A stretch of 64,000 bases of DNA from Candidatus Omnitrophota bacterium (GCA_043718225.1 JAYSWD010000001.1:49092-113091); one strand, 5' to 3'; shown: positions 4,145 through 57,845, numbered from the stretch's first letter. Notes: generated from the sequence alone by a model not told the origin. Numbers and translations are program-made.

Positions 4145-4168
4145 GCTCTGCGCCTTTGGCGCAACCGC
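4145..4168 (+). repeat. Family A short hairpin repeat (CTCTG-RGC-loop-GCY-CAACCGC)
   Basis: gctctgcgcctttggcgcaaccgc. Confidence 0.8.
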
Positions 4169-4245
4169 CGAAAGCAAAAAAGATTTTTTTGAAAACCGCA
4201 TGTTGAGTTTATCGAGACATGCAAAATGTGAACGAGGAAAAGAAA

Positions 4246-4614
4246 ATGAAAAAAGAAATTCACCCCGAATACCGCAAGGTCGTCTTTCGTGACGCCTCAA
4301 GCGATTTTATTCTGTTAACAAGCTCGACGGTTAAAACCACCGAAACGCATGTTTTGGACGGCGTCACTTATCCGTCATATTTGGTCGACATCACAAGCGC
4401 GTCGCACCCGTTTTTCACGGGCAAGCAGCGTATTATGGATACGGCCGGACGCATTGACCGCTTCAAGAAGAAGTTTCAGGACAAGGTCACCGTTGGCGCG
4501 AAAAGCTCTGTGGATGTGAAGGCCCAGAATGCCGCGAAGAAATCCAGCGTCGGATCGACGATCAGCGAAAAACTGAAGGCGCTTAAAGAAAAAGCCGCTG
4601 CTCAGAATTCTTAG
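4246..4614 (+). CDS. rpmE: 50S ribosomal protein L31, type B (no Cys zinc ribbon), with a Lys/Ala-rich C-terminal extension
   Basis: MKKEIHPEY...HPFFTGKQR signature with no CxxC pairs. GAGGAAAAG lies upstream of the ATG at 4246; the start could be 4219. Confidence 0.8.
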
Positions 4615-4623
4615 ACTGTTTCC

Positions 4624-4661
4624 AAAAAATCCCCGTTACTTTCGAGTAGCGGGGATTTTTC
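4624..4661 (+). terminator. Rho-independent terminator after rpmE
   Basis: aaaaaatccccgttactttcgagtagcggggattttt. Confidence 0.6.
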
Positions 4662-4668
4662 TATTTAG

Positions 4669-4692
4669 GCTCTGGGCGCTTCGCCCAACTGC
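4669..4692 (+). repeat. Family A repeat
   Basis: gctctgggcgcttcgcccaactgc. Confidence 0.8.
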
Positions 4693-4725
4693 TAACAATA
4701 ATTACATGCCGAGCTTTATCGAGGC

Positions 4726-5817
4726 GTGAAAGACATAACTGTGAAAATACGGGAAAGATTAGAAAAGCTGGTTTTAAGAAAAGGCGAGGTCGAGGCACAA
4801 TTGTCCGATCCCGTGACACTGCAGAATTCCACGCTGGTTCAAAAATTGACACGCGAACTTTCCTCAATCCGTCCGATCATTAAAAAATTCGCGGAATATA
4901 AAATGAGCGAAGCCCATCGCCACGCGCTTGACTCCGCATCCGATTCCGATCCCGAAATGGAAAAAATGATCCGCGAAGAAAAAGAAGCTCTCGACCAAAA
5001 ACTTGGAAGCCTTCAACTTGAGATGGAAGATTTATTTTTAAAGGGCAGTGAGCCCGACGCTTCGCGCGACGTGATCATGGAAATCCGCGCCGGAACAGGC
5101 GGAGAAGAAGCGGCGCTATTTGTTGGCGTGCTTGTGCGCATGTACGAATATTTCGCGGGCAAACACGGCCTTAAAACGGCGATGATGGAATCAAGCGAAA
5201 CCGAATTGGGCGGTTACAAAGAAGCTGTTTTTTCAATCGCCGGTGAAAACGCTTACAGCTACTTTCGATTTGAACGCGGCATTCATCGCGTTCAGCGGGT
5301 TCCCAAAACCGAATCCAGCGGACGCGTGCATACTTCCGCGGTTACCGTTGCGGTGCTTGCCGAAGTTTCCGAAGAAGAAGTCGAAATACTGCCGAAAGAT
5401 CTCAAAATTGACGTTTACCGTGCCGGCGGCAAAGGCGGACAGCATGTCAATAAAACCGAATCGGCTGTCCGTATTACGCATCTTCCGAGCGGTTTTGTCG
5501 TGACGTGTCAGGATGAAAGGTCCCAAATGAAGAATAAAGCCAGCGCAATGCGTGTATTGAGGGCGCGGCTTTTTGAATTCCAGCGCGCCAAGGAGCATGA
5601 CGCCCAGGCCAAGATTCGCAAAGAGCAGGTTGGAACCGGCGATAGATCGGGCAAAATACGCACCTATAACTATCCGGATCAACGGGTTACGGATCATCGA
5701 ATCGGTTTGACATTGCATAGTCTCGATGATATTCTCGACGGCTCTTTGGACCCTATTGTGGACGCCCTATGGCGCGCTGAAAGGGAAAAAAAGCTGACTC
5801 AGGCTAGCGATAGCTGA
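4726..5817 (+). CDS. prfA: peptide chain release factor 1
   Basis: GGQ motif (AGGKGGQHVNKTESAVRITHLPSG) and RF-1 domain architecture. The stop overlaps the start of prmC. Confidence 0.9.
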   Translation: MKDITVKIRERLEKLVLRKGEVEAQLSDPVTLQNSTLVQKLTRELSSIRPIIKKFAEYKMSEAHRHALDSASDSDPEMEKMIREEKEALDQKLGSLQLEMEDLFLKGSEPDASRDVIMEIRAGTGGEEAALFVGVLVRMYEYFAGKHGLKTAMMESSETELGGYKEAVFSIAGENAYSYFRFERGIHRVQRVPKTESSGRVHTSAVTVAVLAEVSEEEVEILPKDLKIDVYRAGGKGGQHVNKTESAVRITHLPSGFVVTCQDERSQMKNKASAMRVLRARLFEFQRAKEHDAQAKIRKEQVGTGDRSGKIRTYNYPDQRVTDHRIGLTLHSLDDILDGSLDPIVDALWRAEREKKLTQASDS

Positions 5818-6731
5818 TGCTGATCGGCGAAGCTTTATCTCTAGGAGAAAACCGGCTGAAACTTGCTGGCGTCCTTGAGGCTAGGACTGAATGCGAGCAT
5901 ATGTTGATGGAGCTGATGAACGCGAATCGTTCAGAAGTGCTGTTTTATATTAGCTCTGAGCAAAGCTCAACCGCGCCGTTTCATTTTGCCTCTGAGCCTT
6001 CGGCTCAAACGGCGAAGAGCAATTTGACGGCGCAGCAAGAGAAACAGTTTTTTGATTGGATTGCGAGCAGGGGAAAAAGAATTCCTTTGGCGTATTTGCT
6101 GGGCGATACGTTTTTTCATTCTTTGAAATTAAAAGTGGGACCGGGATGTTTGATTCCGCGGCCTGAAACAGAACGGTTGGTGGAAGCGGCGCTTAAGATT
6201 ATCCGCGAAGATAAATTGAATGCCCCGGTAATCATGGATATTGGAACGGGATCGGGCGCGATTGCGCTTGCGATTTTAGCCGCCGTGCCTGAGGCTAAAG
6301 CGGTGATGGTTGACTTTTCTGCGGAAGCTTTGAAGATTGCCCGTGAGAATACTGCGGAACTTGGATTTTTAGGCCGCGCTGAGTTAATTCACTCAGATTT
6401 ATATTTAAATATACCGTCTGATTTGAAAGTTAATTTGATTTTGTCGAATCCGCCCTATTTAACGGCCGAAGATTTGGCCGGCCTGCAGCCGGAAGTGGTT
6501 TTTGAGCCGCGAATGGCATTAGACGGCGGGAAAGACGGCTTGGATTTTTACCGGAAAATGATTCCGGATGCCGCAAAGTTTTTAAAGCCGCAAGGCTGGT
6601 TGGGATTTGAAGTCGGCGCCGGACAGGCCCAGGCAGTTAGCGCAGAGTTAAAGAGAAACGGTTATGAAGATCTGAGAATTATTAAAGATCATCAAGATAT
6701 AGAGCGCATAGTTTTAGCCCGAAAAGGTTGA
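5817..6731 (+). CDS. prmC: release factor glutamine N5-methyltransferase PrmC/HemK, carrying an in-frame ~20 aa insertion made of two Family A repeat copies
   Basis: NPPY motif (LSNPPYL), the SAM-binding MDIGTGSGAIA, and PLAYLLG..LIPRPETE. It aligns collinearly with E. coli PrmC except for the insertion SSTAPFHFASEPSAQTAKSN. Confidence 0.85.
   Translation: MLIGEALSLGENRLKLAGVLEARTECEHMLMELMNANRSEVLFYISSEQSSTAPFHFASEPSAQTAKSNLTAQQEKQFFDWIASRGKRIPLAYLLGDTFFHSLKLKVGPGCLIPRPETERLVEAALKIIREDKLNAPVIMDIGTGSGAIALAILAAVPEAKAVMVDFSAEALKIARENTAELGFLGRAELIHSDLYLNIPSDLKVNLILSNPPYLTAEDLAGLQPEVVFEPRMALDGGKDGLDFYRKMIPDAAKFLKPQGWLGFEVGAGQAQAVSAELKRNGYEDLRIIKDHQDIERIVLARKG
5943..5964 (+). repeat. Family A repeat, in-frame inside prmC
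   Basis: gctctgagcaaagctcaaccgc. Confidence 0.8.
5979..6004 (+). repeat. Family A repeat, in-frame inside prmC
   Basis: cctctgagccttcggctcaaacggcg. Confidence 0.75.
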
Positions 6732-6777
6732 AATGCATCGCCGGTCGGGCGTAAGCCCGGAGGCTTAAAAGATACCG

Positions 6778-8475: not shown

Positions 8476-9237
8476 ATGTTAGAAATTGATATCGTCACGT
8501 TGTTTCCGGATTTTTTCGAATCTCCGTTGAAACAGTCGCTTTTGAAGCGCGCGCAGGCCGACGGATTGATTAAAATCCGCGTGCATAATCTGCGCGATTG
8601 GGCGCGCGATAAGCATCACAAAACGGATGATTCGCCTTTTGGCGGCGGCCCCGGAATGGTGTTTAAGATCGAGCCAATGCATGAGTGCTTGAAAGAAATC
8701 GGTGCGGGAGCATGGAAAATTTTGCTCGATGCGCATGGCGAATTGCTGAAGCCAAAGTTGGCTGAAAGCCTCGCGCAGAAAAAGAAAATTGTTTTGATCG
8801 CGGGCCATTACGAAGGTATGGACTACCGCATTAAAGAACACCTGGTCGACCAAATGGTTTCGGTCGGTGACTTTATTACGATGGGCGGCGAAGCCCCGGC
8901 CTTGTGTTTGATTGAAGCGCTGACAAGGTTTGTTCCGGACGTGCTCGGAAACGAAGAATCGACGGCAGAAGAGAGTTTTAGCGGCGGGATGCTTGAATAT
9001 CCGCAGTATACGCGGCCGCGCGAATATAACGGTTGGGAAGTTCCCGAAGTTTTGTTTTCGGGAAATCATGCGAAGATAAAAAAGTGGCGTAATGAGACGG
9101 CGGAGAAATTGACGCGGAAGCACAGACCAGACTTACTACATTCTGCTTCTGCGCTGCCGGCGCAACCAGCGGATGAAGAGGGCAACAAAACCGTGAAGGT
9201 TAAGCTGAAAAGAGAAAGAGCTTCGAAAAAGAAATAA
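8476..9237 (+). CDS. trmD: tRNA (guanine37-N1)-methyltransferase
   Basis: SPOUT TrmD motifs (IVTLFPDFF, SPFGGGPGMV, LIAGHYEGMDYR). I chose the ATG at 8476 (MLEIDIV); the upstream in-frame stretch is Family A repeat sequence. The C-terminal tail contains a Family A copy in-frame. Confidence 0.85.
   Translation: MLEIDIVTLFPDFFESPLKQSLLKRAQADGLIKIRVHNLRDWARDKHHKTDDSPFGGGPGMVFKIEPMHECLKEIGAGAWKILLDAHGELLKPKLAESLAQKKKIVLIAGHYEGMDYRIKEHLVDQMVSVGDFITMGGEAPALCLIEALTRFVPDVLGNEESTAEESFSGGMLEYPQYTRPREYNGWEVPEVLFSGNHAKIKKWRNETAEKLTRKHRPDLLHSASALPAQPADEEGNKTVKVKLKRERASKKK
9147..9170 (+). repeat. Family A variant, in-frame in the trmD 3' end
   Basis: cttctgcgctgccggcgcaaccagc. Confidence 0.6.
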
Positions 9238-9250
9238 TAGTATTGTTTGG

Positions 9251-9275
9251 CCTTTGAGACGCTGTCTCAACCGGC
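9251..9275 (+). repeat. Family A-like variant
   Basis: ctttgagacgctgtctcaaccggca. Confidence 0.45.
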
Positions 9276-9313
9276 ATGCAGAGCAAAAATTTAAAGAAAT
9301 AATAATAGGAAAA

Positions 9314-12320: not shown

Positions 12321-12321
12321 A

Positions 12322-13893
12322 ATGACAAGCATATTCAAAAAAATATTCGCGGCGATTCTGTTGGTTGCAGTCGCGCTGCCGTGCAATGCGCCGGCGGCAG
12401 AAACAGCCGATTACCGTAAACAGGAAACGCTGCCTTACAGAGATATTTACGAGCAAAATGTTCACAGTGAAATCGTCAATCAGCTCGACTTAAGCCGGCA
12501 GACGAGAAGGCTTTTTAACAAGCCTCTGCGCGCGGCCAATATTAATGCTTTTGATGAAGTTCCGGACTCCTCTTTTTTTACGAATCGCCACGCGCGCGCC
12601 GCTCTTTCCAAAGAGCAGCTCGCTAAAGGATTTGTTGAAAACAGCGGGCCTGATCTTGCGGGTGATTTAGCCGTGATAGGCGGAGAGATCGAAGGCGTGC
12701 ACCCAAGCTATTTTGTGAAGGATTCGCGCGGCGACCAGTATATTTTAAAATTTGATTCAGCCGAAAATCCGGAACTTTCTACCGCCGCGGAAATTATCGG
12801 CAGCCGCTTTTATCACGCGCTTGGTTATAACGTGCCGCAGTATACAATCGAGTTAATCTCGGCGGAAAAAGTAAAAGCGGCTGAAGGGTCTATGCTCCGC
12901 GATGACACGGGCTTCCGTAAACCGCTGACTCAGGAACGGCTCGATGAATATTTTCTTTTTTCGCCGCAAACCGCCGACGGATCCTACCGCGTTGCTGCAA
13001 GCAAAATTCTTACGGGAGAAAATAAAGGCTATTTCAGCCTTATCGGCCGCCGCAAAAACGACCCTGATGACATTATTAATCACCGTGACCGCAGGGAAAT
13101 CCGCGCTTTAGCCGTATTTGCCGCGTGGCTTAATAACAGCGGCGTCAGTGAAACCAATACGCTGGATGTTGTTGCGAATGAAAACGGGAAAATATTTTTA
13201 AAGCATTATTTGATTAATTTTAACGGCGTTCTCGGAAGCGCGGGACACGGGGCTAAGCCGCCGATGTACGGGCATGAATACATCGCCGATTTTAGCGACA
13301 TAGCCAAGGCCTTTTTTACATTGGGCTTTTGGGAAAAGCCCTGGCAAAAACGCTGGCGCGAAGCCGGCGAAAAACCGAATGACTCGACGGCGGTTGGATA
13401 TTTGGACAATCGCGAATTTAAGCCGGGTAAATATAAAAACCAATTACCTTACGAATCTTTTAAGCGCGTGACCCGCGCGGATGGATTTTGGGCGGCAAAG
13501 CAAATCGCCGCTTTCAGCGATGAAGATATTCGCACCATGGTCTCAGCCGGAAAATTAACTTCTTCCGAAGACGCCGAATTCATTTCAAAAAATCTTATAG
13601 AACGGCGCGATTTGATAACTCAATATTGGTTTTCGATGGCGGCGCCTTTGGATGACTTTAGCGTTGAATCCGGCAAACTCGTGTTTAAGGATTTAGCCAA
13701 GCCCGCAGCCTCTGTGTATTACGTCACAGCGTTAAATGAAAAAAATAAAGCTGTGAAGTCCTGGACGGTAAATGAACCGCGTATCAACGTAGACTCCAAT
13801 CAGACTTTAGAAGTCCGCACCTCCGAAAATGGCCCGTTTGTCCGCGTCGCTGTGAATGCGGACAATGTTCTCTCCGTTCGACACGAAGACTAA
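12322..13893 (+). CDS. hypothetical secreted protein (523 aa), signal peptide, translationally coupled to the upstream barrel gene
   Basis: The ATG at 12322 (MTSIFKKIFAAILLVAVALPCNA) comes 2 nt after the barrel gene's stop. I recognise no known family. Confidence 0.5.
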   Translation: MTSIFKKIFAAILLVAVALPCNAPAAETADYRKQETLPYRDIYEQNVHSEIVNQLDLSRQTRRLFNKPLRAANINAFDEVPDSSFFTNRHARAALSKEQLAKGFVENSGPDLAGDLAVIGGEIEGVHPSYFVKDSRGDQYILKFDSAENPELSTAAEIIGSRFYHALGYNVPQYTIELISAEKVKAAEGSMLRDDTGFRKPLTQERLDEYFLFSPQTADGSYRVAASKILTGENKGYFSLIGRRKNDPDDIINHRDRREIRALAVFAAWLNNSGVSETNTLDVVANENGKIFLKHYLINFNGVLGSAGHGAKPPMYGHEYIADFSDIAKAFFTLGFWEKPWQKRWREAGEKPNDSTAVGYLDNREFKPGKYKNQLPYESFKRVTRADGFWAAKQIAAFSDEDIRTMVSAGKLTSSEDAEFISKNLIERRDLITQYWFSMAAPLDDFSVESGKLVFKDLAKPAASVYYVTALNEKNKAVKSWTVNEPRINVDSNQTLEVRTSENGPFVRVAVNADNVLSVRHED

Positions 13894-13903
13894 GATCTCT
13901 CTA

Positions 13904-13925
13904 CTCTGAGCCTCAGCTCAACCGC
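13904..13925 (+). repeat. Family A repeat
   Basis: actctgagcctcagctcaaccgc. Confidence 0.8.
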
Positions 13926-13953
13926 AAAGTCTCATTCTAATATATAATTTGGC

Positions 13954-18562: not shown

Positions 18563-18666
18563 AAAATGCTTGCTCACTGCGTTGCAAACAGCGCTCCCTT
18601 GTGCGACGTATTACCGCATACGCCTCCGCGGTCGCTTGTTTACGCCTTGTGCCCAAGCCTTTTTGA
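18563..18666 (+). repeat. Family B ~105 nt structured terminator-associated repeat (A5...CTGC.TCGTT...CCTTGTGCG...CCTCCGCGG...CGCCTTG...T5GA)
   Basis: Copy after pabB, with the conserved blocks tgcgttgcaaa, cccttgtgcg, gtattaccgcatacgcctccgcgg and cctttttga. Confidence 0.75.
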
Positions 18667-18703
18667 TCAGATTGTGTTATAAAATTATTATTTGGAGAAA
18701 TAA

Positions 18704-21426: not shown

Positions 21427-21444
21427 TCGAATCTTCCACTCGAT

Positions 21445-30672: not shown

Positions 30673-32436
30673 GCAGCCAAAGAATCTCCCAAACCCTCAG
30701 GTTATCTTGTTTTCGCGCGTAAATACCGCCCTCAGACTTTTGACGAAGTCGTCGGGCAGCAATCCACGCTGACAACGCTTAAAAACGCGCTGGCTTCGGG
30801 ACGTATCCCGCAAAGTTTTATTTTCTCAGGTTCCCGCGGCGTCGGAAAGACATCCGTCGCGCGTATTCTCGCGAAAGCTTTGAACGCGTCCGGCGGAGCA
30901 AACCCCGATTTTGACCGTAAAGACGCGGCTGCCCGTGAAATTGAAGAAGGCCGCTCCATGGATGTGCTTGAAATTGACGGCGCATCCAATCGCGGCATCG
31001 AAGAAATCCGTTCCTTGCGCGAAACCGTTAAATTCAAACCCGCATCCGGCGCGTATAAAATTTATATTATCGATGAAGTCCATATGCTCACAACCGAAGC
31101 GTTCAATGCTTTGCTCAAAACGCTTGAAGAGCCGCCACCGCATGTAAAATTTATTTTCGCGACAACTGAAATTCACAAAGTGCCGCTGACGATTCTTTCG
31201 CGCTGTCAGCGTTTTCATTTTCGCCGGCTCACCGCGGATGAAATTGTTGAGAAACTGGTCGATATCGCGAAAATTGAAAAAATCAAATGCGACAAAGACG
31301 CACTTTATTTAATCGCGCGCGCGAGTGACGGAGCGCTGCGTGACGCTGAAAGCCTGCTGGATCAAATTTCCAGTTTTTCCGACGGTGAAATTAAAGAAGA
31401 ATCCGTTCTGACATTGCTCGGAATTGCCTCCGACAAAATCAATGAAACTCTGATCGAAGCGGTGAAGGCGCGCAGCGGCCAGGATATTTTGGCCGTGATT
31501 CAATCTTTTTATGAAAGTGGCGGCGACTTGCTTCAGCTTTCGCGCGGATTTTTTGAAATTTTAAGGCATTTGCTTGTGCTGCAGCATGTCAAAGACACAC
31601 AGGGTTTAATCGAAGCGGGACCCGCGATGCTTGAAATGTTGAAAAAACATAAAGCCTCTTTTAGCGAAGCCGAAATTTTACTCGGCCTTGCCATCTTCCA
31701 AAACCTGCAGGCTGATTTGCGCCGGCCCGTAACCGCGCCGCGCTTCATGGTTGAAGCCGCTTTTTTAAAATTGATTTATGCCGACGGCATGCGTTCCGTA
31801 AACGAACTGATTTCTAATTTCTCCCTGCCTGCCGCCCGGCCGGTGAGCGAGCCGCAACCGGCAATACCAAAACGAAATATTTCTTCTGCTCCGGCTCAGC
31901 AAAACGTTCCACAGCCGCCGATTAAATCTCAGTCTGTCGCTCCGGTAAAACCTTCAACATACAATGAACCCAAAGCGCAGATCCAACCTAGGGTTGGTGG
32001 CTCGGGAACAGAGACGCTGGTTGCGCCTTTGGCGCAGAAGCAAAATGAAATAGCAATTGAACAGGTTAAGACGGCTTGGCCGAACGTGATTGAATCCGTC
32101 AAACAAAAGCGCATGTCCACCGGCATTTTTCTTTCCGAGGCCGAACCTGTCGAAGTAGATGACACTGTGATTATTTTAGGGCTTCCCGAAGAGTTTAAAT
32201 TTCATAAGGAGAGCCTTGAAAAAGATAACAATAAAAAACTGGTCGAAGATTGTTTTTCAGAAAGTATCGGAACCAAAGTCCGCGTGCGTTTTGTCGTGAC
32301 ACAGCAAGCTGCCGTCGAAAGACCGGCACCCCGGCCCGTGACGCTTCCTTCGGAGTCCGAAAAACGGGAGCTGCCAGATATTATTACGAAAGCGCTGGAT
32401 GTTTTTGACGGCGCTAAAATCGTTCGTGCTGAATAA
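30661..32436 (+). CDS. dnaX: DNA polymerase III subunit gamma/tau
   Basis: AAA+ clamp-loader motifs (GSRGVGKTS, DEVHMLT, SRCQRF). The start may be the second ATG at 30670. Confidence 0.9.
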   Translation: MTPMAAKESPKPSGYLVFARKYRPQTFDEVVGQQSTLTTLKNALASGRIPQSFIFSGSRGVGKTSVARILAKALNASGGANPDFDRKDAAAREIEEGRSMDVLEIDGASNRGIEEIRSLRETVKFKPASGAYKIYIIDEVHMLTTEAFNALLKTLEEPPPHVKFIFATTEIHKVPLTILSRCQRFHFRRLTADEIVEKLVDIAKIEKIKCDKDALYLIARASDGALRDAESLLDQISSFSDGEIKEESVLTLLGIASDKINETLIEAVKARSGQDILAVIQSFYESGGDLLQLSRGFFEILRHLLVLQHVKDTQGLIEAGPAMLEMLKKHKASFSEAEILLGLAIFQNLQADLRRPVTAPRFMVEAAFLKLIYADGMRSVNELISNFSLPAARPVSEPQPAIPKRNISSAPAQQNVPQPPIKSQSVAPVKPSTYNEPKAQIQPRVGGSGTETLVAPLAQKQNEIAIEQVKTAWPNVIESVKQKRMSTGIFLSEAEPVEVDDTVIILGLPEEFKFHKESLEKDNNKKLVEDCFSESIGTKVRVRFVVTQQAAVERPAPRPVTLPSESEKRELPDIITKALDVFDGAKIVRAE

Positions 32437-33130: not shown

Positions 33131-33139
33131 AGACCGCTG

Positions 33140-36591: not shown

Positions 36592-38856
36592 ATGCGCGTT
36601 CATGAGCTTGCGAAGCAAATTGATAAAACGAGCAAAGAGATTATCGCTGAATTTGAAAAAATCGGCGTTTCCTTAAAGAGCCATATGTCTGTTATTCCCG
36701 ACGGAGCACTGCATCAATTAGCCTCTGCGTCTGCGACGAAACCGGCGGCAACAGCACCACAGTCCGTTCCAAAAAATGAAGAAGCAAAACAAAAAACAGC
36801 AGCCGGTAAAGCTTCTGCCCCCGCGCCAAAAGCGCAGCCGGCAGCAGCCAAACAAAAAGAAACCCCTAAAAAAGAAATCGCGCCCGCTCCGACGGTTGCC
36901 GCTCCTGTTGTTAAAAAAGAAGAGATAAAGCCCGTGGCGGAAGTAAAAGCGCCTGCGCCCGCAGCCGCTTCCATTGCCGCAGCCGTGCCGAAAGCAGCGT
37001 CTGCGCCGGCACCTGTTCCGTCTCGCTCTGCCTCTGGGCCTGCAGCCCAACCGACAAAAACGCCATATGAACGGCCGCGCGTGGAAGAAGTTCTGCCTCA
37101 AAAAGTGACATTGGCATTCCCGATTACGGTCGGAAATTTTTCTCAAGCCACTGGCCGCAAGGTCGCGGAAATTATTAAAACTCTGATGAAAATCGGCGTT
37201 ATGGCAAATGTGAACCAGCTCCTCAACGAAGAAATCGGAATGGGGCTCGCTTCCGCGTTAAGCATTGAAATTGAAAAAGAACAGGATGAAATCGAAGCTT
37301 TGCTGCGTGACTCGGCTCAGAGCGAAGACCCTACAAAATTAAAATTCCGTCCTCCCGTTGTAACAATGATGGGCCATGTTGATCACGGCAAAACATCACT
37401 TTTAGATGCGATCCGCAAAACGAGCGTCGCTTCCCGTGAAAAAGGATTTATTACGCAGCATATCGGCGCTTATGGCGTAGATGTTCCGGGCAAAGGGCAT
37501 GTGACTTTTCTTGATACACCGGGCCACGAAGCTTTTACCGCCATGCGTGCGCGCGGCGCGAACGTGACGGACATTGTGGTGCTTGTGGTTGCGGCGGATG
37601 ACGGCATTATGCCCCAAACAGTGGAGGCGATCGCGCATGCGCGCGAAGCCGGTTGTCCTATTATCGTCGCGATCAATAAAATTGATTTACCCGCGTCGAA
37701 TCTTGAAAAAGTAATGGGCGGCTTACAGAAAGCTGATTTAACTCCCGAAGAATGGGGCGGAAAAACGATTTGCGTGAAAGTCTCCGCGAAAACCGGTGCC
37801 GGAATCGACGAGCTTTTGGATATGCTTTTGCTGCAAGCGGAAGTTTTGGAATTAAAAGCTAACCCCGACCGTTTTGCAGTGGGAACTATTATTGAAGGCC
37901 ACTTGTCAAAAGGCAGCGGCCCCGCGGCAACCGTGATCGTTCAGAACGGAACTTTGAAAACAGGCGATATTATCGTCGCAGGCCCGAACATGGGCCGCGT
38001 ACGCGCGCTGCGTGATGATTTGGGTAAACATATGAAAGAAGCGGGACCGTCTTATGCCGCGGAAGTCATGGGGCTTGACGGCGTACCCGCCGCGGGCGAA
38101 ATTTTTCACGTTGCGCCGGATGAAAAAATCGCGCGCCGTTTCGCGGAAAAGAAAAGACTCGAATTGCGCGAAAAAGAGATGCATTCGGCCAGCAAACATA
38201 TGTCGCTTGAAAGTGTTTACGAAAAAATTTCCGAAGGTAATTTTAAAGAACTTAAATTAATTGTTAAAGCGGACGTGCAGGGTTCGATCGAAGCTTTGCG
38301 CGACGCTCTCGAGCGCCTTTCAACCGAAATGTGCCGTGTCCATATTATTCACAGCGTTGCCGGCGGCATCAATGAATCCGACGTCATGCTTGCGGCGGCG
38401 AGTGACGCCATCATTATCGGTTTTCATGTGCGCGCGGACGCGAAAGCCAAAGTGCTTGCGGACCGCGAAGGCGTGGATTTACGCTATTATGGAATTATTT
38501 ATGAAGCCGTAGAGAACGTAAAAATGGCCATGGAAGGAATTCTATCACCGACGCTTACGGAAAAAATAGTCGGGACGATTGAAGTTCGCCAGATTTTCAA
38601 ATCTTCAAAAGTAGGCACAATCGGCGGCGCTAAAGTTAAAAAAGGCACGGTCACACGCTCCAATCAAATCCGCGTACTGCGCGACAATGTGGTGTTGTTT
38701 GAAGGTAAGCTGGCATCGCTTAAGCGTTTCAAGGATGACGTTCGTGAGGTCAAAGAAGGCTTCGAATGCGGCGTTGCGGTGGAAGGCTTTAATGATTTGC
38801 AGCCCGGAGATCTTATAGAAGCTTTCCATATTGAAAAAACTGCGACCAAACTTTAA
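36592..38856 (+). CDS. infB: translation initiation factor IF-2
   Basis: Ala/Pro-rich N-terminal region, a G-domain (GHVDHGKTSLLD, DTPGHEAF, NKID) and C-terminal domains. Confidence 0.9.
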   Translation: MRVHELAKQIDKTSKEIIAEFEKIGVSLKSHMSVIPDGALHQLASASATKPAATAPQSVPKNEEAKQKTAAGKASAPAPKAQPAAAKQKETPKKEIAPAPTVAAPVVKKEEIKPVAEVKAPAPAAASIAAAVPKAASAPAPVPSRSASGPAAQPTKTPYERPRVEEVLPQKVTLAFPITVGNFSQATGRKVAEIIKTLMKIGVMANVNQLLNEEIGMGLASALSIEIEKEQDEIEALLRDSAQSEDPTKLKFRPPVVTMMGHVDHGKTSLLDAIRKTSVASREKGFITQHIGAYGVDVPGKGHVTFLDTPGHEAFTAMRARGANVTDIVVLVVAADDGIMPQTVEAIAHAREAGCPIIVAINKIDLPASNLEKVMGGLQKADLTPEEWGGKTICVKVSAKTGAGIDELLDMLLLQAEVLELKANPDRFAVGTIIEGHLSKGSGPAATVIVQNGTLKTGDIIVAGPNMGRVRALRDDLGKHMKEAGPSYAAEVMGLDGVPAAGEIFHVAPDEKIARRFAEKKRLELREKEMHSASKHMSLESVYEKISEGNFKELKLIVKADVQGSIEALRDALERLSTEMCRVHIIHSVAGGINESDVMLAAASDAIIIGFHVRADAKAKVLADREGVDLRYYGIIYEAVENVKMAMEGILSPTLTEKIVGTIEVRQIFKSSKVGTIGGAKVKKGTVTRSNQIRVLRDNVVLFEGKLASLKRFKDDVREVKEGFECGVAVEGFNDLQPGDLIEAFHIEKTATKL

Positions 38857-40142: not shown

Positions 40143-41132
40143 ATGCGGATTTTTAAGGTAACGGCGTCATTTAAAAAAATTACCAAACGGCCGCTTGTTC
40201 TTGCGCTCGGAAATTTTGACGGTATTCACCGGGGGCATCAAAAGCTTTTAGATTATGTTGTCAGCCAGGCAAAGAAACTGCATGGTTGCGCGGCAGTGTT
40301 TACTTTTCAAGAGCATCCGCAAGCGATTTTGCATCCGGAACATGCGCCCGAAAGCCTGCAAGCGCTTGAGCAAAAACTGGCGCTTTTCCGAGCGCGCGGA
40401 ATCGAGATTTCTTTTTTACAGAATTTTGATTCGCGTTTTTCGATGCTTTCGGCGGAAGAGTTTGTAAAAAAAATTCTTGTTAAGCAGCTTGGCATTCGCG
40501 AGATTTGCCTCGGTTATAACGCGCGTTTTGGCCGCGGGCGGGAAGGCGATGCAGATCTTCTCCGTAAGCTGGGCAAAGAATGCGGTTTTAAGGTTTTTCA
40601 GGCGCGGCCTGTCGCTTGGCGGGGAGTGCCGGTTTCAAGTACGGCGGTCAGAAAAGCCGTACATGCGGGGAAAATGAACCTCGCGGCGCAATTATTGGGG
40701 CGGCCGTGGAGCGTAGCGGGTATCATCAAGCGCGGAAGTGCGCGCGGGGAAAAACTGGGGTTTGCTACGGCGAACATGGATTTAAATAAATATGCACGCC
40801 CGGCTTTTGGAGTTTATGCCGTCCATGTGCTGCTACATAATATTGCCTCTGCGCCTAAGGCGCAACCGGCGCAGCGTCGTTCAGCCTCTGGGCTCACCCA
40901 ACCGGCATTTTGCAACGGTGTGGCGAATTTTGGATTGAGGCCTACTTTTGGAGGAACGGTAAAGCCTGTTTTGGAAACCCATCTTTTTAATTTTAAGAAA
41001 AACATTTACGGAAAAAAAATAGAAGTATTTTTTGTGAAGCGCCTGAGAAATGAAAAAAAATTTACCTCCAAAGAAGAGCTCGCGAAACAAATTCAAAAAG
41101 ATATTCGTGCCGCGAAGGTCGCGTTGAAATAA
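40143..41132 (+). CDS. ribF: bifunctional riboflavin kinase / FMN adenylyltransferase, with a ~20 aa in-frame insertion made of two Family A repeats
   Basis: N-terminal FMNAT (GNFDGIHRGHQ) and C-terminal riboflavin kinase (GVYAV..GVANFGLRPTF). The insertion ASAPKAQPAQRRSASGLTQPA sits in a loop that is absent from E. coli RibF. Confidence 0.85.
   Translation: MRIFKVTASFKKITKRPLVLALGNFDGIHRGHQKLLDYVVSQAKKLHGCAAVFTFQEHPQAILHPEHAPESLQALEQKLALFRARGIEISFLQNFDSRFSMLSAEEFVKKILVKQLGIREICLGYNARFGRGREGDADLLRKLGKECGFKVFQARPVAWRGVPVSSTAVRKAVHAGKMNLAAQLLGRPWSVAGIIKRGSARGEKLGFATANMDLNKYARPAFGVYAVHVLLHNIASAPKAQPAQRRSASGLTQPAFCNGVANFGLRPTFGGTVKPVLETHLFNFKKNIYGKKIEVFFVKRLRNEKKFTSKEELAKQIQKDIRAAKVALK
40846..40870 (+). 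repeat. Family A repeat, in-frame inside ribF
   Basis: gcctctgcgcctaaggcgcaaccggc. Confidence 0.75.
40884..40906 (+). repeat. Family A repeat, in-frame inside ribF
   Basis: gcctctgggctcacccaaccggc. Confidence 0.75.
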
Positions 41133-45310: not shown

Positions 45311-45326
45311 CGACAATTATATTTTT

Positions 45327-45358
45327 GCTCTGAGCTGCGCTCAACCGCGGCTCAGAGC
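45327..45358 (+). repeat. Family A repeat with a head-to-head partial inverted copy
   Basis: gctctgagctgcgctcaaccgcggctcagagc. Confidence 0.8.
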
Positions 45359-48456: not shown

Positions 48457-48564
48457 GAAAAAGGGCTTCTGCGTCGTTGCAAAAATCTCACTTCCTTGTG
48501 CGGCGCACGTTTCTAGTACGCCTCCGCGGGCGTTCGTTGGCGCCTTGCATAACCACCTTTTTGA
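48457..48564 (+). repeat. Family B repeat
   Basis: Copy after ftsK: ttctgcgtcgttgcaaaa ... cttccttgtgcgg ... tacgcctccgcggg ... gcgccttgca ... cctttttga. Confidence 0.75.
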
Positions 48565-48603
48565 ATGCCTTTTGTGTTTTGAGATTCTGCAAATGAGGCA
48601 TTT

Positions 48604-48624
48604 GCGGTTGAGCTTGCTCAGAGC
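48604..48624 (-). repeat. Family A repeat, reverse orientation
   Basis: gcggttgagcttgctcagagc. Confidence 0.8.
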
Positions 48625-48686
48625 CAAATATAGAAGGGGAGCGCTGGTTTTCGGGGATGTCAAACCAACGCTCCCGGGGTTGATCA

Positions 48687-48829: not shown

Positions 48830-48990
48830 GCAACAATGTCCCGTCCAACTTGTTTTTAAGCCCGACACAGCACCGAGGTATATTCTTATATCGCCTATAG
48901 CGATTTAAATTTTAACGAAGGGCCAGGTCCGTCCGACTTGTTTTTAAACCGGACACGGCACGGAGCATTGTTTTCAAATGGCTTTAAGCC
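48830..48990 (+). promoter_or_regulatory. Two ~40 nt direct repeats plus short palindromes, ~200-330 bp upstream of phoB
   Basis: Repeat 1 (48838-48877) is gtcccgtccaacttgtttttaagcccgacacagcaccgagg. Repeat 2 (48926-48966) is gtccgtccgacttgtttttaaaccggacacggcacggagc. The palindromes atcgcctatagcgat and aatggctttaagccatt lie alongside, and the pair is flanked by caacaatg / cattgtt. Confidence 0.4.
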
Positions 48991-49162
48991 ATTTGAATTA
49001 AAAGGAAGCGCCAGTGTCAAGAACGTGTAAATTCATTTTCCGCCTCTCGCAATCAAAGGCGCACTTGTGTATGATTCACCGAGGAAGAAGCCGGTTTTAA
49101 GAAATTAAGTGATAGTAATAAAGCTTAAACCTTATCACTTATAACTTATTACCAAAGGACCC

Positions 49163-53569: not shown

Positions 53570-54526
53570 ATGAAAAACAACTTTGACCACGTCCTTTTGA
53601 TCGGTTTTGGCGGGCCTGAAAAGACCGAAGATGTCATGCCTTTTCTGCGCCAGGTGACCGCGGGCCGCGATGTTCCGGATGAGCGTCTGCAATCCGTAGC
53701 AAAGCATTATGAAATGATTGGCGGCAAATCGCCTTACAACGCATGGGCTTCGCGGCTGCAAAAGGATCTCGCCAAACTGCTCGGCACCGAACGGCCCGTT
53801 TTTTTGAGCTATCGTAATACCGCGCCGTTTTTAAAAGATGTGTTGCTTGATATTCATGACCGCGGCCTGAAAAAAGGAGTCGGGGTTATTCTCGCGCCTT
53901 TCCGCAGTCCCGTGAGCTGCCGGCGTTATAAAGAAAACATCCATGAGGCGCTGCATCAAAACGGCATCATGGATTTAAATTATATTTATCTGCCCGCCTG
54001 GTATCACCACCCGGAGCTTATTAAAATCATTTCCGACGCCGTTAAGGGTGCGGTACAAAAAATTCCTTCCGGTATCCGGCAGGGGACGGAAGTTATTTTT
54101 ACATGCCACTCCATTCCGTTGATGATGGAAAAGGACTGCCACATTTGTATTTTTAGTGCTGAATATGAAGCGGCGAGCAGATTAGTCGCGGATAGCGCGG
54201 GTTTGTTTGATTGGAAACATGTTTATCAGTCTCGGAGCGGCAATCCCGAACAGCCGTGGCTTGAACCGGATATTCTTGCGACGATTAAGGCCGCCGCGGC
54301 TTCAGGCAAGAAAGCTGTTCTGGTCATTCCGATGGGCTTTTTGAGCGATAACGCGGAAGTTTTATATGATCTTGATATTGAAGCTAAAAAATTAGCGGAA
54401 GAATTGGGCCTTCAATTTTACCGCGTTCCAACGCCCGGTAATCATAAAGCGCTTACGGAGCTTTTCGCGGACCTAATTCAGGATGTTTTAAAAAGCGGCC
54501 GCAATAAAAATACCTGTTCGGTTTAA
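53570..54526 (+). CDS. hemH: ferrochelatase
   Basis: LLIGFGGPE N-terminus and chelatase fold, ~318 aa. It could be a coproporphyrin-type enzyme. Confidence 0.7.
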   Translation: MKNNFDHVLLIGFGGPEKTEDVMPFLRQVTAGRDVPDERLQSVAKHYEMIGGKSPYNAWASRLQKDLAKLLGTERPVFLSYRNTAPFLKDVLLDIHDRGLKKGVGVILAPFRSPVSCRRYKENIHEALHQNGIMDLNYIYLPAWYHHPELIKIISDAVKGAVQKIPSGIRQGTEVIFTCHSIPLMMEKDCHICIFSAEYEAASRLVADSAGLFDWKHVYQSRSGNPEQPWLEPDILATIKAAAASGKKAVLVIPMGFLSDNAEVLYDLDIEAKKLAEELGLQFYRVPTPGNHKALTELFADLIQDVLKSGRNKNTCSV

Positions 54527-54531
54527 TTTTT

Positions 54532-54553
54532 GCTCTGAGCTACGCTCAGCCGC
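54532..54553 (+). repeat. Family A repeat
   Basis: gctctgagctacgctcagccgc. Confidence 0.75.
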
Positions 54554-54585
54554 GATTTAATTTGCTTTGGGGCGCAATTGCGTTT

Positions 54586-57195: not shown

Positions 57196-57257
57196 AAAGC
57201 AGGCTCTTTATGTCAAGAGCTGTTCATTCCAACACAATAACTGGAAGGATATAGCAG

Positions 57258-57677
57258 ATGAAAGTTTTGAAGGAATTTAAAGACTTCGCGATGAAGGGCA
57301 ATGTGGTCGATATGGCTGTCGGTGTCATTATCGGCGGCGCGTTCGGAAAAATCGTAAGTTCGCTCGTCAATGACATCATCATGCCGCCTATCGGCAAGCT
57401 TCTAGGCGGTGTGGATTTCACCAGCTTGTTTATCGATATGAGCGGTGTCGGATACGCTTCATTGGCCGAGGCCCAGAAGGCCGGCGCCGCGACGATTAAT
57501 TACGGTGTGTTCTTGAACACGATTATTAATTTCGTTATTGTCGCCTTCTGTTTGTTCCTTGTGATCAAAGGCATGAATGCGCTGAAGAAAAAAGAAGAGG
57601 CCAAACCCGGAGTTCCGGTTGCGGCGCCGCGTAATGAAATCTTGCTTGAAGAAATCCGCGACCTGTTACGTAAATAA
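57258..57677 (+). CDS. mscL: large-conductance mechanosensitive channel
   Basis: [33 protein letters not shown] signature. Confidence 0.9.
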
Positions 57678-57681
57678 TTAA

Positions 57682-57701
57682 CTCTGCGCTACGCGCAACC
57701 G
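57682..57701 (+). repeat. Family A repeat
   Basis: ctctgcgctacgcgcaaccg. Confidence 0.7.
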
Positions 57702-57710
57702 TAAATTACT

Positions 57711-57741
57711 AGGGCGGCGCTAATAGCGCCGCCCTTTTTTA
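57711..57741 (+). terminator. Rho-independent terminator after mscL
   Basis: agggcggcgctaatagcgccgcccttttttt: an 11 bp GC stem plus T6. Confidence 0.85.
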
Positions 57742-57757
57742 TTTAACCTAAGAAAAA

Positions 57758-57793
57758 CTCCCGGGGTTAGGAGTGATCTCCTAACCCCGGGAG
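57758..57793. promoter_or_regulatory. Perfect 14 bp inverted repeat upstream of the MFS transporter gene
   Basis: ctcccggggttagg agtgatct cctaaccccgggag, with no T-run. Confidence 0.4.
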
Positions 57794-57823
57794 TTGAGAT
57801 GGTTCAGAATGAAATTATTTTCG

Positions 57824-57845
57824 TGGTTGAGCCATAGGCTCAGAA
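57824..57845 (-). repeat. Family A repeat, reverse orientation
   Basis: tggttgagccataggctcagaa. Confidence 0.7.

What the first reader, a model, noticed from the sequence alone, without database searches (positions are those of the whole stretch)
4145..57845. Pervasive 22-26 nt hairpin repeat, at least 27 copies in 64 kb, with an RPE-like habit of sitting in-frame inside genes
A motif with conserved flanks CTCTG and CAACCGC around a short GC stem (RGC, a 3-6 nt loop, GCY) recurs about every 2.4 kb. It appears in both orientations in intergenic spacers. It also appears inside open reading frames, where it is consistently read in one frame as ..(A/E/G)(L/P)x(A/T)QP... A short, oriented, structured repeat that tolerates translation is reminiscent of Rickettsia palindromic elements. 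I know of no published family with this consensus.
Basis: seen in the sequence. Interest (0 to 1): 0.85.

Follow-up and report, generated by a model that had tools for sequence, protein, structure and literature searches.

The report
Small mobile hairpin repeat inside genes
A roughly 22-base DNA hairpin with fixed flanks occurs 31 times in this 64 kb piece of an uncultured Omnitrophota bacterium, 12 of them translated in frame inside essential genes; it behaves like the known REP and RPE palindromic repeats but belongs to a family I could not find described.

Summary
A covariance model built from 23 copies finds 31 copies in the window (E <= 0.0012), followed by a clear score gap. It finds none in 548 kb of syntenic DNA from more distant relatives.

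The element has a T-rich arm of about 14 nt. This is followed by CTC, a 5-6 bp hairpin (TG-N-GC(C)/(G)GC-N'-CA) and ACCG(G)C.

The window comes from an Omnitrophota genome about 80% identical in DNA to MAG GFS_2494. The family occurs in at least seven related assemblies.

Twelve window copies lie inside genes: prmC x2, trmD, rnhB, a pabB-like gene, purH, dnaX, nusA, infB x2 and ribF x2. Orthologues lacking the family are shorter at exactly these places for prmC, trmD, rnhB and ribF.

Sense-strand coding copies are almost always read as ..S-(E/G/A)-P-x-A-Q-P... About half of the intergenic copies start within 26 nt after a stop codon.

Copies at the same site in different species keep the flanks but differ in stem sequence, with both arms changed together. 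Other sites show gain, loss or flipped orientation.

My best reading is a new family of REP-like mobile palindromes. Intragenic REPs and RPEs are already known, so I rate it a new member of a known kind. It lacks the GTAG/CGTC tags of known REPs, and no transposase was found.

The parts
4132..4175 (+). copy, intergenic rho | rpmE2
   Evidence: R1 48.5 bits; CTCTGCGCCTTTGGCGCAACCGC
4656..4698 (+). copy, intergenic rpmE2 | prfA (variant CAACTG)
   Evidence: R1 36.8 bits
5940..5975 (+). copy inside prmC, codons 42-53, read SSEQSSTA
   Evidence: R1 28.1 bits; part of a 20-aa insertion absent from 5 orthologues
5976..6019 (+). copy inside prmC, codons 54-68, read ASEPSAQTA
   Evidence: R1 47.7 bits
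6734..6776 (-). copy, intergenic prmC | murA (stem CGGGC/GCCCG)
   Evidence: R1 35.8 bits
8055..8097 (+). copy starting 12 nt after the murA stop
   Evidence: R1 24.3 bits
8408..8448 (+). copy in the 5' UTR of trmD (inside an over-extended TTG ORF)
   Evidence: R1 35.7 bits; the TrmD profile starts at residue 18 of that ORF
9133..9176 (+). copy inside the trmD C-terminal region, read HSASALPAQPAD
   Evidence: R1 21.4 bits; about 10 aa absent from orthologues
9238..9281 (+). copy starting at the trmD stop codon
   Evidence: R1 35.1 bits
9309..9350 (-). copy in the 5' UTR of rplS, 6 nt before the ATG, followed by AGGAG
   Evidence: R1 43 bits
9678..9719 (+). copy starting 9 nt after the rplS stop
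   Evidence: R1 38.1 bits
10404..10445 (+). copy inside the rnhB C-terminal extension, read SSEPRLNR
   Evidence: R1 40.7 bits; orthologues end about 22 aa earlier
13890..13931 (+). copy whose T-rich arm overlaps the stop of ORF 12295-13893
   Evidence: R1 32.6 bits
17994..18037 (+). copy inside the chorismate-binding (pabB/trpE-like) gene, codons 242-256, other frame (LRASCATG), stem CGCGC/GCGCG
   Evidence: R1 34.2 bits
20421..20464 (-). antisense copy inside purH, read SGCAGGAEGKNK
   Evidence: R1 38.3 bits; lies in a loop 4 aa longer than in PDB 9ou7
32010..32053 (-). antisense copy inside the dnaX linker, read LVAPLAQKQNE
   Evidence: R1 32.5 bits; between domain III and DnaX_C; no copy in the dnaX of L110
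36539..36582 (+). copy inside the nusA C-terminal tail, read SSEPLAQPD, 10 nt before the infB ATG
   Evidence: R1 43.1 bits; same site occupied in 4 genomes, with paired stem changes
36709..36752 (+). copy inside the infB N-terminal region (one stem mismatch)
   Evidence: R1 22.9 bits; orthologous copies in L107, L109 and L110
37018..37061 (+). copy inside the infB N-terminal region, read ASGPAAQPT
   Evidence: R1 38.2 bits; the GFS_2494 orthologue has TGCGC/GCGCA instead of TGGGC/GCCCA
40833..40876 (+). copy inside ribF, read ASAPKAQPA
   Evidence: R1 41.9 bits; absent from close orthologues; pLDDT < 50 loop
40877..40912 (+). second copy inside ribF, read ASGLTQPA
   Evidence: R1 22.1 bits
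42520..42560 (+). decayed relic after the pssA stop
   Evidence: R1 only 7.7 bits; intact copies at this site in L107 and L109
43004..43044 (+). copy after the rpsO stop, stem partly broken
   Evidence: R1 23.6 bits
45276..45317 (+). copy whose arm overlaps the pnp stop
   Evidence: R1 42.2 bits; same site in L109 and L110 with different, fully paired stems
45318..45354 (+). copy, intergenic pnp | dut, head-to-tail with the previous one
   Evidence: R1 27.5 bits
45377..45417 (+). variant copy (TTCTG..CAACCA) 7 nt before dut
   Evidence: R1 23.9 bits
45951..45993 (+). variant copy, intergenic dut | ftsK
   Evidence: R1 24.4 bits
46016..46059 (-). copy in the 5' UTR of ftsK; its A-rich end reaches the ATG
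   Evidence: R1 38.6 bits; GFS_2494 has a + copy in this spacer
48598..48637 (-). copy after ftsK, next to a 110-nt repeat
   Evidence: R1 36.3 bits; conserved in GFS_2494
54519..54559 (+). copy whose arm overlaps the ferrochelatase stop (variant CAGCCG)
   Evidence: R1 41.4 bits
57668..57708 (+). copy whose arm overlaps the mscL stop, followed by a canonical terminator
   Evidence: R1 31.5 bits; the core is absent from L037 at this site
57817..57859 (-). copy (variant) in the 5' UTR or start of the MFS transporter gene
   Evidence: R1 28.7 bits; present in L037, replaced by a + copy in GFS_2494

Best explanation
This is a family of REP-like miniature palindromic repeats specific to one clade of Omnitrophota.

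**What is shown.**
- The unit that comes and goes is a 20-24 nt core. It has fixed single-stranded flanks, CTC and ACCG(G)C, around a 5-6 bp GC-rich hairpin. One base pair of the hairpin is free to be any Watson-Crick pair.
- The core almost always lies directly 3' of a T-rich stretch of about 14 nt.

**What is inferred.**
- Copies spread at the DNA level through a hairpin-recognising enzyme encoded elsewhere in the genome. The most likely candidate is a RAYT/IS200-type HUH tyrosine transposase working on single-stranded DNA. It would insert next to T-runs without a target duplication.
- Purifying selection then filters the insertions. Copies survive just after stop codons and in 5' UTRs.
- Copies also survive in loop, linker and tail-coding parts of genes. 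There the sense copies are nearly all in the one frame that reads as small polar residues (S-E/G/A-P-x-A-Q-P). This frame bias indicates they are translated.
- Once in place, a copy can persist across speciation with the hairpin kept intact by changes on both arms. The cause is either selection on the structure or hairpin-templated (template-switch) repair.
- As part of mRNA, the stem-loop at gene ends probably acts like REPs do, as a 3' barrier or punctuation within operons.
For: - **A real, structured, abundant repeat.** There are 31 copies in the window, with controls near zero. Covariation is strong. Hairpin energies are -5 to -10 kcal/mol.
- **Clade-restricted.** About 119 copies occur in 347 kb of the window plus loci from relatives. 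None occur in syntenic relatives whose MurA is 73% identical or less.
- **Turnover.**
  - The pnp-dut, dut-ftsK and mscL-MFS spacers differ in copy number and orientation between the window and GFS_2494.
  - The rpsM-rpsK spacer holds a sense copy in one genome and an antisense copy in another.
  - L111 has its own copy at the end of truB.
  - Decayed relics sit after pssA and rpsO in the window.
  - After mscL, L037 keeps the T-run and the downstream sequence but lacks exactly the core. L110 keeps the T-rich arm without the core after rpsO and after pssA.
- **Coding insertions.**
  - PrmC is 20 aa longer, TrmD about 10 aa longer, and RnhB has a tail about 22 aa longer than five orthologues each.
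  - The RibF loop is short in close relatives, holds one copy in GFS_2494 and two copies in the window.
  - The RibF insert is a pLDDT < 50 loop between two strands.
- **Frame bias.** 25 sense coding copies are in frame 'xxC TCT GNG', against 6 and 1 in the other two frames.
- **Stop-codon proximity.** In 29 of 61 intergenic copies, the core starts 1-26 nt after the stop codon of a co-oriented gene.
- **Persistence with paired changes.** This is seen in the nusA tail (4 genomes, including a U.G intermediate), infB, ribF, and after pnp and mscL (one added base pair).
- **Behaviour matches published REPs.** These show intragenic copies, positions within 20 bp after ORF ends, and supplied stop codons (PMC3733652).
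Against: - No transposase was found. tblastn with RAYT and IS200 TnpA sequences, recalled from memory, found nothing in the window plus 109 loci. No transposase domain was found in the window's genes. Only about 0.35 Mb of the relevant genomes was in hand.
- The element lacks the GTAG or CGTC tag that defines the known REP super-families.
- Inverted doublets (REPIN-like) are a minority: 8 head-to-tail, 8 convergent and 4 divergent close pairs.
- No recent insertion between near-identical strains was seen, so mobility is inferred from differences between species.
- Flanks are nearly invariant at orthologous copies, with 1 difference in 132 positions. Paired stem changes are also seen. Both would be expected equally of a host-selected functional site. 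That count is biased, because only copies still recognised by the model were compared.
- Whether the T-rich arm is a target or part of the element is unresolved. Each copy in a head-to-tail pair has its own arm.
Confidence: 0.6

Rival explanations
1. The motif is a host-selected functional site rather than a selfish repeat. It would be a protein-binding hairpin in mRNA or DNA that punctuates operons, for example by protecting 3' ends, directing processing or controlling translation at gene boundaries. It would have been recruited repeatedly because it is useful. This reading can coexist with a mobile origin.
For: - Flanks CTCTG and CAACCG are nearly invariant at orthologous copies, while stems co-vary and loops drift.
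- The copy in the nusA tail, 10 nt upstream of infB, is kept in four genomes.
- Half of the intergenic copies lie within 26 nt after a stop codon, and orientation follows the neighbouring gene in 74% of cases.
- Almost every spacer of the ribosomal-protein operons and of the rpmE2-prfA-prmC-murA-trmD-rplS-rnhB stretch carries one.
Against: - Copies decay at some sites (after pssA and rpsO in the window) and flip orientation at others.
- Twelve copies sit in protein loops, where an operon-punctuation role makes little sense.
- G.T and A.C mismatches are equally frequent, so there is no sign that only the sense RNA is under selection.
- Syntenic relatives do without the motif entirely.
- Orientation relative to transcription cannot be separated from orientation relative to replication.
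Confidence: 0.27
2. The motif is a DNA-level orientation or uptake signal, such as a DNA uptake sequence or a replication-oriented motif like KOPS or Chi. Its coding copies would be tolerated in permissive frames.
For: - Density is high, at one copy per 2 kb.
- There is a strand bias: 72% of copies lie on the G-rich strand.
- Coding copies show a frame bias, as is known for uptake sequences (general knowledge).
Against: - Uptake and polarity signals are fixed words. Here a stem position takes all four base pairs with its partner, and the loop is free.
- The motif is strongly concentrated in spacers: by the ORF map, 62% of copies lie in about 13% of the sequence, and about half of the intergenic copies start just after a stop codon.
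- The strand bias is equally explained by gene orientation.
Confidence: 0.04
3. The motif is an intrinsic transcription terminator or attenuator hairpin.
For: It is a GC-rich hairpin near gene ends.
Against: - The T-run lies 5' of the hairpin, not 3'.
- The copy after mscL is itself followed by a canonical terminator, GGGCGGCGC..GCGCCGCCCTTTTTT.
- Copies lie inside genes and in both orientations.
- Invariant unpaired flanks are not a feature of terminators.
Confidence: 0.03

Closest known systems
REP / REPIN elements with RAYT transposases (Enterobacteria, Pseudomonas; the GTAG and CGTC super-families of Di Nocera et al. 2013, PMC3733652)
   Same: - It is a 20-40 nt GC-rich stem-loop with short conserved unpaired ends.
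- Hundreds of dispersed copies are implied.
- Copies are mostly in spacers between co-directional genes and close to the upstream stop codon.
- Some copies are intragenic and in frame.
- Singletons and dimers both occur.
- Copy content varies between related species.
   Different: - It has neither a GTAG nor a CGTC tag. The ends are CTC and ACCG(G)C.
- A T-rich stretch always precedes it.
- Head-to-tail pairs are as common as inverted ones. They are described as negligible for the CGTC families (PMC3733652; the passage read does not give the figure for GTAG families).
- About 39% of window copies are intragenic.
- No RAYT was found in the sequence available.
Rickettsia palindromic elements (RPE; Ogata et al. 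2000, as summarised in PMC3184786 and PMC3733652)
   Same: - It is a palindromic repeat inserted in frame into housekeeping genes.
- It is tolerated as extra loop or tail peptides.
- It is also found in spacers.
   Different: - RPE-1 is 105-146 bp; this element is a 20-24 nt core, or about 40 nt with its arm.
- It occurs in a different phylum.
[quoted passage not shown]
- No shared sequence is evident.
Intragenic GTAG REPs of Opitutus terrae (Verrucomicrobia, in the PVC group in which PMC3733652 found GTAG repeats)
   Same: The genome has many REP copies inside known protein genes, sometimes two per gene (PMC3733652).
   Different: - The tag and consensus differ.
- The genes hit there are mainly DNA repair genes. 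Here they are translation, nucleotide and cofactor genes.
IS200/IS605-family single-strand transposition
   Same: This is inferred only. The element combines a hairpin with short flanking guide-like bases. At one clean site the core is present or absent directly 3' of a short T-rich sequence with no target duplication. There is also a strand bias.
   Different: - It has a single hairpin, not two distinct ends.
- There is no transposase gene nearby.
- The mechanism is untested.

Membership tests
REP (repetitive extragenic palindromes) | Short (20-40 bp) GC-rich palindrome able to form a stem-loop | tested here: met
   The core is 20-24 nt with a 5-6 bp stem. 96.8% of stem cells pair across 119 copies, and energies are -5 to -10 kcal/mol.
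REP (repetitive extragenic palindromes) | High copy number, dispersed, mostly intergenic and close to the 3' ends of ORFs | tested here: met
   There are 31 copies in 64 kb. By a crude ORF map, 74 of 119 copies are intergenic in sequence that is about 87% coding. In 29 of 61 intergenic copies the core starts within 26 nt after a stop codon.
REP (repetitive extragenic palindromes) | Conserved GTAG or CGTC tetranucleotide at one end (PMC3733652) | tested here: not met
   Column counts over 119 copies give the ends ...TTTTKS-CTCTG and CAACCG(G)C. Neither GTAG, CGTC nor their complements appear.
REP (repetitive extragenic palindromes) | Association with a RAYT (Y1 HUH transposase) gene flanked by copies | tested here: inconclusive
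   tblastn with RAYT and IS200 TnpA (sequences recalled from memory) found nothing in the window plus 109 loci. ORFs lying between inverted copies are ribosomal proteins, MurA and the like. Whole genomes could not be scanned.
REPIN | Two REPs in inverted orientation forming the mobile doublet | tested here: not met
   There are only 20 close pairs among 119 copies: 8 head-to-tail, 8 convergent (several 59-71 nt apart) and 4 divergent. Most copies are singletons.
Rickettsia palindromic elements (RPE-1) | Palindromic element of about 105-146 bp | tested here: not met
   The conserved unit is about 40 nt including the arm. The RPE size is from PMC3184786.
Rickettsia palindromic elements (RPE-1) | In-frame insertion into protein-coding genes that stay intact | tested here: met
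   Twelve window copies lie in full-length genes. Insertions are confirmed against orthologues for prmC, trmD, rnhB and ribF.
Rickettsia palindromic elements (RPE-1) | Sequence similarity to RPE consensus sequences | not tested
   No RPE sequences were available in the tools. Rfam gave no match to the window apart from two tRNAs.
Intrinsic terminator | GC-rich hairpin followed by a U-run | tested here: not met
   The T-run is 5' of the hairpin in 119 copies. A separate canonical terminator follows the mscL copy.
DNA uptake sequence (DUS/USS) | Fixed 9-12 nt word without a requirement for pairing | tested here: not met
   A stem position varies through all four pairs, with only one non-paired (U-C) copy among 117 scored, and the loop is free in sequence and length.
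IS200/IS605-type single-strand transposition (mechanistic analogy) | Insertion 3' of a short specific target without duplication, with precise presence or absence | tested here: inconclusive
   One clean empty site exists (L037 after mscL). Two or three further sites keep the T-rich arm without the core (L110 after rpsO and pssA; L111 ribF loop). Only 11 of 203 TTTTTG sites are occupied. Loss cannot be told from gain.

The most novel reading that the evidence does not exclude
The 20-24 nt core is a self-contained mobile hairpin, among the smallest mobile units described. It would be moved by a still unidentified hairpin-specific enzyme that inserts it next to T-runs. The host would have co-opted it as a structural signal kept intact by paired substitutions, even inside the coding sequence of essential genes such as nusA, infB and ribF. 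The same core with different outer flanks in a second, differently labelled MAG would then mark a wider enzyme-hairpin system.
Probability: 0.2. Interest if true: 0.7.

Novelty: new member of a known kind. Interest (0 to 1): 0.45.

Why it matters
- **Annotation.** Proteins of this clade carry inserts and tails of about 4-22 residues that are repeat-derived. Gene callers will over-extend ORFs across copies in 5' UTRs.
- **Insertion tolerance.** Housekeeping proteins (PrmC, TrmD, RNase HII, PurH, DnaX, NusA, IF-2, RibF) show where an insertion is tolerated and in which reading frame.
- **Evolution of structure.** Paired stem changes at orthologous copies, including inside coding sequence, offer a clean case for separating selection on structure from hairpin-templated mutation.
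- **Mechanism.** If the enzyme that moves the core is found, it would extend the REP/RAYT picture to a third class of terminal tag and to a phylum known only from metagenomes.

Tried and rejected
- **Source contig.** Exact look-up of window proteins to get the source contig failed. The cluster look-up gave only 'NCBI, contig 155,721 bp'.
- **Transposase search.** tblastn with E. coli RAYT and IS200 TnpA, both recalled from memory, found nothing with E below about 1. ORFs flanked by inverted copies were ordinary housekeeping genes.
- **Viral contigs.** The scan gave mostly single chance matches. It served only as a negative control.
- **Closer relatives.** The metagenome scan with MurA found none above 73% identity. 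These loci lack the family, and I used them as outgroups.
- **RNA versus DNA selection.** G.T and A.C stem mismatches are equally common, so this test was uninformative.
- **Transcription versus replication orientation.** The two are confounded: there are 9 and 7 discordant copies.
- **Empty versus filled sites at 80% identity.** The GST-mscL spacer shows replacement by unrelated sequence of the same length, not a clean gap. The ribF and dnaX loops are too diverged to fix boundaries.
- **Rejected readings.**
  - Promoter reading of the reverse strand: rejected because most copies would then fire antisense to the genes.
  - Sigma-54 promoter: rejected because the GG/GC spacing does not fit.
  - Terminator: rejected because the T-run lies on the wrong side of the hairpin.
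  - Uptake sequence: rejected because the stem co-varies.

Full report
**Check of the observation**

CTCTG..CAACCG occurs 19 times. A scan requiring a perfect hairpin between CTC and ACCG gives about 24 convincing copies.

I aligned 23 copies (A4) and built a covariance model, R1. Run over the window without filters, it returns 31 matches with E <= 0.0012. The next match is at E = 0.1, so there is a clear gap. Of the 31, 24 are on the + strand and 7 on the - strand.

Two controls support the count. The model finds 0 matches (E <= 0.01) in 548 kb of syntenic loci from more distant relatives. It finds 4 matches (E <= 0.001) in 578 kb of viral contigs that had been preselected for the core pattern.

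**Anatomy**

Column counts over 119 copies from the window and relatives (A8) give this layout:
- a T-rich arm of about 14 nt, roughly C-Y-G-T-T-T-N-N-T-T-T-T-K-S;
- the almost invariant CTCTG;
- one free base N, then GC and often a further C;
- a loop of 2-4 nt;
- (G)GC, the complement N', and CAACCG;
- an optional G, then C.

The stem is T-A, G-C, N-N', G-C, C-G, sometimes with a sixth pair.
- The N-N' pair takes all four Watson-Crick forms (AU 56, CG 35, GC 16, UA 9). Of the 119 copies, one has a non-pair (U-C) there and two have a gap.
- In all, 96.8% of stem cells pair, against 81.5% in column shuffles and 16-50% with slid partners.
- The hairpins are modest, at -5 to -10 kcal/mol.
- G.T and A.C mismatches are equally rare. 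The data therefore do not say whether one RNA strand or the DNA is the relevant molecule.

**Where the window comes from**

The genes are ordinary chromosomal housekeeping genes, almost all on the + strand. They include polA, coaE, rho, rpmE2, prfA, prmC, murA, trmD, rplS, rnhB, yraN, a pabB-like gene, purH, mnmE, dnaX, recR, nusA, infB, rbfA, truB, ribF, psd, pssA, rpsO, pnp, dut, ftsK and mscL.

It returned repeated hits only in four MAGs:
- Candidatus Omnitrophota bacterium GFS_2494 (JAYTHE01);
- Omnitrophica UBA2337 (DDUN01);
- SRP300315_co1_21 (CAZLTL01);
- SRP135725_co2_92 (CAZSVD01).

The window is about 77-89% identical in DNA to syntenic GFS_2494 contigs. The window's RibF is in the protein collection from an NCBI contig of 155,721 bp, but that contig itself could not be retrieved.

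The model finds 85 copies in 272 kb of loci from these MAGs. It also finds copies in three metagenome contigs whose RibF is 60-69% identical: L109, L110 and L111. Syntenic prfA-prmC-murA-trmD-rnhB-yraN loci whose MurA is 73% identical or less have none. The family is therefore clade-specific.

**Copies inside genes**

After correcting ORF starts using profile matches, 12 of the 31 copies lie inside genes:
- prmC x2;
- the trmD C-terminal region;
- the rnhB tail;
- the pabB-like gene;
- purH (antisense);
- the dnaX linker (antisense);
- the nusA tail;
- infB x2;
- ribF x2.

Four copies lie within the 5' end of an over-extended ORF. Those before trmD, rplS and ftsK are really in 5' UTRs. The one at the MFS transporter gene is in its 5' UTR or at its start, because the start codon is not settled.

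Alignment with five orthologues from genomes lacking the family shows where the extra sequence sits:
- PrmC has a 20-residue insertion exactly at the two copies.
- TrmD has an insertion of about 10 residues.
- RnhB has an extension of about 22 residues.

In RibF, the loop between GVYAV and GVxNFG is 12 residues in close relatives such as P0006. It is 25 residues in GFS_2494, which has one copy, and 31 residues in the window, which has two. In an AlphaFold model with mean pLDDT 86.7, residues 235-251 have pLDDT below 50 and form a loop between two strands.

The purH copy lies in a loop only 4 residues longer than in a solved PurH structure. The dnaX copy lies in the Pro/Ala/Gln-rich linker.

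All 10 sense coding copies in the window that have the usual TG...CA stem are read in the frame xxC TCT GNG. This gives peptides such as SSEPLAQPD, ASGPAAQPT and ASAPKAQPA. The pabB-like copy uses another frame.

I also made a crude ORF map of the 119 copies.
- It puts 25 sense coding copies in the usual frame, against 6 and 1 in the other two.
- Most of those 6 lie at ORF starts and are doubtful.
- One of the other frames is closed by CTC-TGA in the A-type stem.
- The other would encode hydrophobic residues (I-F-A-L), so selection on the translated product explains the bias (inference).

**Copies between genes**

In 29 of 61 intergenic copies that have a co-oriented upstream gene, the core starts 1-26 nt after that gene's stop codon. 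In five window copies, the T-rich arm starts at or overlaps the stop codon: trmD, ORF 12295-13893, pnp, ferrochelatase and mscL.

Some reverse-oriented copies lie directly before start codons: rplS, ftsK, the MFS gene, and rpsK in L023.

Copies occupy almost every spacer from 4 to 10.5 kb in the window and in the ribosomal-protein operons of two relatives.

Orientation follows the nearest gene in 74% of copies and the G-rich strand in 72%. The two cannot be separated with these data.

The copy after mscL is followed by a separate canonical terminator. The element is therefore not itself the terminator.

**Persistence and turnover**

Several sites are occupied in three or four species: the nusA tail, the first infB site, and the sites after pssA, rpsO and pnp. 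At these sites CTCTG and CAACCG are unchanged, with 1 difference in 132 compared positions. That count is biased, because only copies still recognised by the model were compared.

The stems at these sites differ, but with both arms changed:
- **nusA tail:** GAGCC/GGCTC, GAGTC/GACTC, and the intermediate GAGTC/GGCTC.
- **First infB site:** TGTGCC/GGCACA, TGCGGC/GCCGCA and TGCGCC/GGCGCA.
- **Second infB site:** TGGGC/GCCCA against TGCGC/GCGCA.
- **ribF:** TGCGCC/GGCGCA against TGTGCC/GGCACA.
- **After pnp:** TGCGC/GCGCA, TGATCC/GGATCA and TGTGCC/GGCACA.
- **After mscL:** one base pair added.

Other sites show change instead:
- The window has three copies between pnp and dut, where GFS_2494 has none recognisable.
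- The dut-ftsK and mscL-MFS spacers hold copies of different orientation in different genomes.
- The rpsM-rpsK spacer has a sense copy in one genome and an antisense copy in another.
- L111 has a private copy at the end of truB.
- The window's copies after pssA and rpsO are decaying.

One site is a clean present/absent pair. After mscL, L037 has the T-run joined directly to the sequence that follows the core in the window. L110 likewise keeps the arm without the core after rpsO and pssA.

So the core is the unit of gain or loss. Whether the arm is a target or part of the element remains open, because each member of a head-to-tail pair has its own arm.

**Mechanism**

The following points are shown:
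- It is a clade-specific, abundant hairpin with fixed flanks.
- Copy number, position and orientation change between species.
- Coding copies are insertions relative to outgroups and are read in a preferred frame.
- Some copies persist with paired stem changes.

The following points are inferred:
- Spread occurs through a hairpin-recognising single-strand DNA enzyme of the RAYT/IS200 type, next to T-runs.
- Selection filters copies by position and frame.
- The hairpin is maintained by selection or by template-switch repair within the palindrome. The added base pair after mscL fits a templated event better than two independent insertions.
- The element has a REP-like effect on mRNA ends.

I found no transposase in the window. 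I also found none in about 0.35 Mb of related sequence. This is the main gap.

**Comparison with what is known**

Di Nocera et al. 2013 (PMC3733652) describe REPs as 20-40 bp stem-loops tagged by GTAG or CGTC. They report REPs lying within 20 bp of upstream ORF ends, sometimes supplying stop codons. They also report REPs entirely inside known genes, most numerous in Opitutus terrae and Rickettsia conorii, and they note that untagged REP-like families exist. Delihas 2011 (PMC3184786) lists RPE at about 105-146 bp and reviews in-frame fusions of repeats.

The present element shares the behaviour of these families. It does not share the tags, the RPE size, or the predominance of inverted dimers.

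No paper in the searchable library links Omnitrophota with REP or RAYT. The main Omnitrophota genomics paper does not mention repeats or transposases.

**Verdict**

This is a real and well-defined repeat family. I classify it as a new family of REP-like palindromic elements with an unusually high intragenic share and good evidence that the hairpin is maintained. Its habit of sitting in frame inside genes is not new in kind. Interest is moderate. It would be higher if the moving enzyme or a host function were identified.

Noticed in passing
window 2320-2440, 18581-18680, 21341-21433, 24125-24217, 33133-33250, 34803-34895, 38860-38975, 48457-48570: A second, unrelated dispersed repeat of about 110 nt has at least 8 intergenic copies. 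It begins ..TGAAAAA.. and ends ..CTTTTTGATCG, with a conserved centre CGTATTACCGCATACGCCTCCGCGGGCGCT. It is also present in GFS_2494, UBA2337 and SRP300315 loci. The copy after ftsK is more conserved between the window and GFS_2494 than the neighbouring coding sequence. It has no Rfam match, and its folding is only weakly better than shuffles (z = -1.6). It may be a MITE or a small RNA family.
   Followed up: partly
L016 6148-6171(-), L051 254-276(+), L093 3602-3624(+): A MAG labelled 'uncultured Rickettsiales bacterium SRP287051_co2_205' carries the same core, CTCTGAGC..GCTCAACCG. It is embedded in different conserved outer flanks: TTTxTCCGGxTCG before the core and CTCCCGCGTAA after it. One copy occurs in each of three loci. 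This may be a sister family, or a sign that the core module is more widespread.
   Followed up: partly
window 61069-62829: A BamHI-like restriction endonuclease gene (+) lies next to an HTH plus N6/N4 DNA methylase gene (-). They sit in the lowest-GC part of the window (0.425) and are probably a horizontally acquired restriction-modification system.
   Followed up: no
window 48841-49014: There is a tandem duplication of an 86-88 nt unit (74% identical) in the long spacer between ftsK and the response-regulator gene. This region is not shared with GFS_2494.
   Followed up: no
window 24412-26151 and 26185-27960: Two adjacent paralogous CHASE2-GGDEF diguanylate cyclase genes lie here. Their DNA is about 70% identical in stretches.
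   Followed up: no
L023 and L080 (ribosomal-protein operon loci of GFS_2494 and SRP300315_co1_21): Nearly every spacer of the rpmJ-rpsM-rpsK-rpsD-rpoA region carries a hairpin copy, with 9 and 8 copies per 8 kb. This suggests enrichment in highly expressed operons.
   Followed up: partly
window 57710-57740 and 57750-57790: Between the two copies flanking the mscL-MFS spacer lie a canonical intrinsic terminator and a second perfect 15-bp palindrome (CTCCCGGGGTTAGGAG..CTCCTAACCCCGGGAG). The palindrome is absent from both relatives.
   Followed up: no
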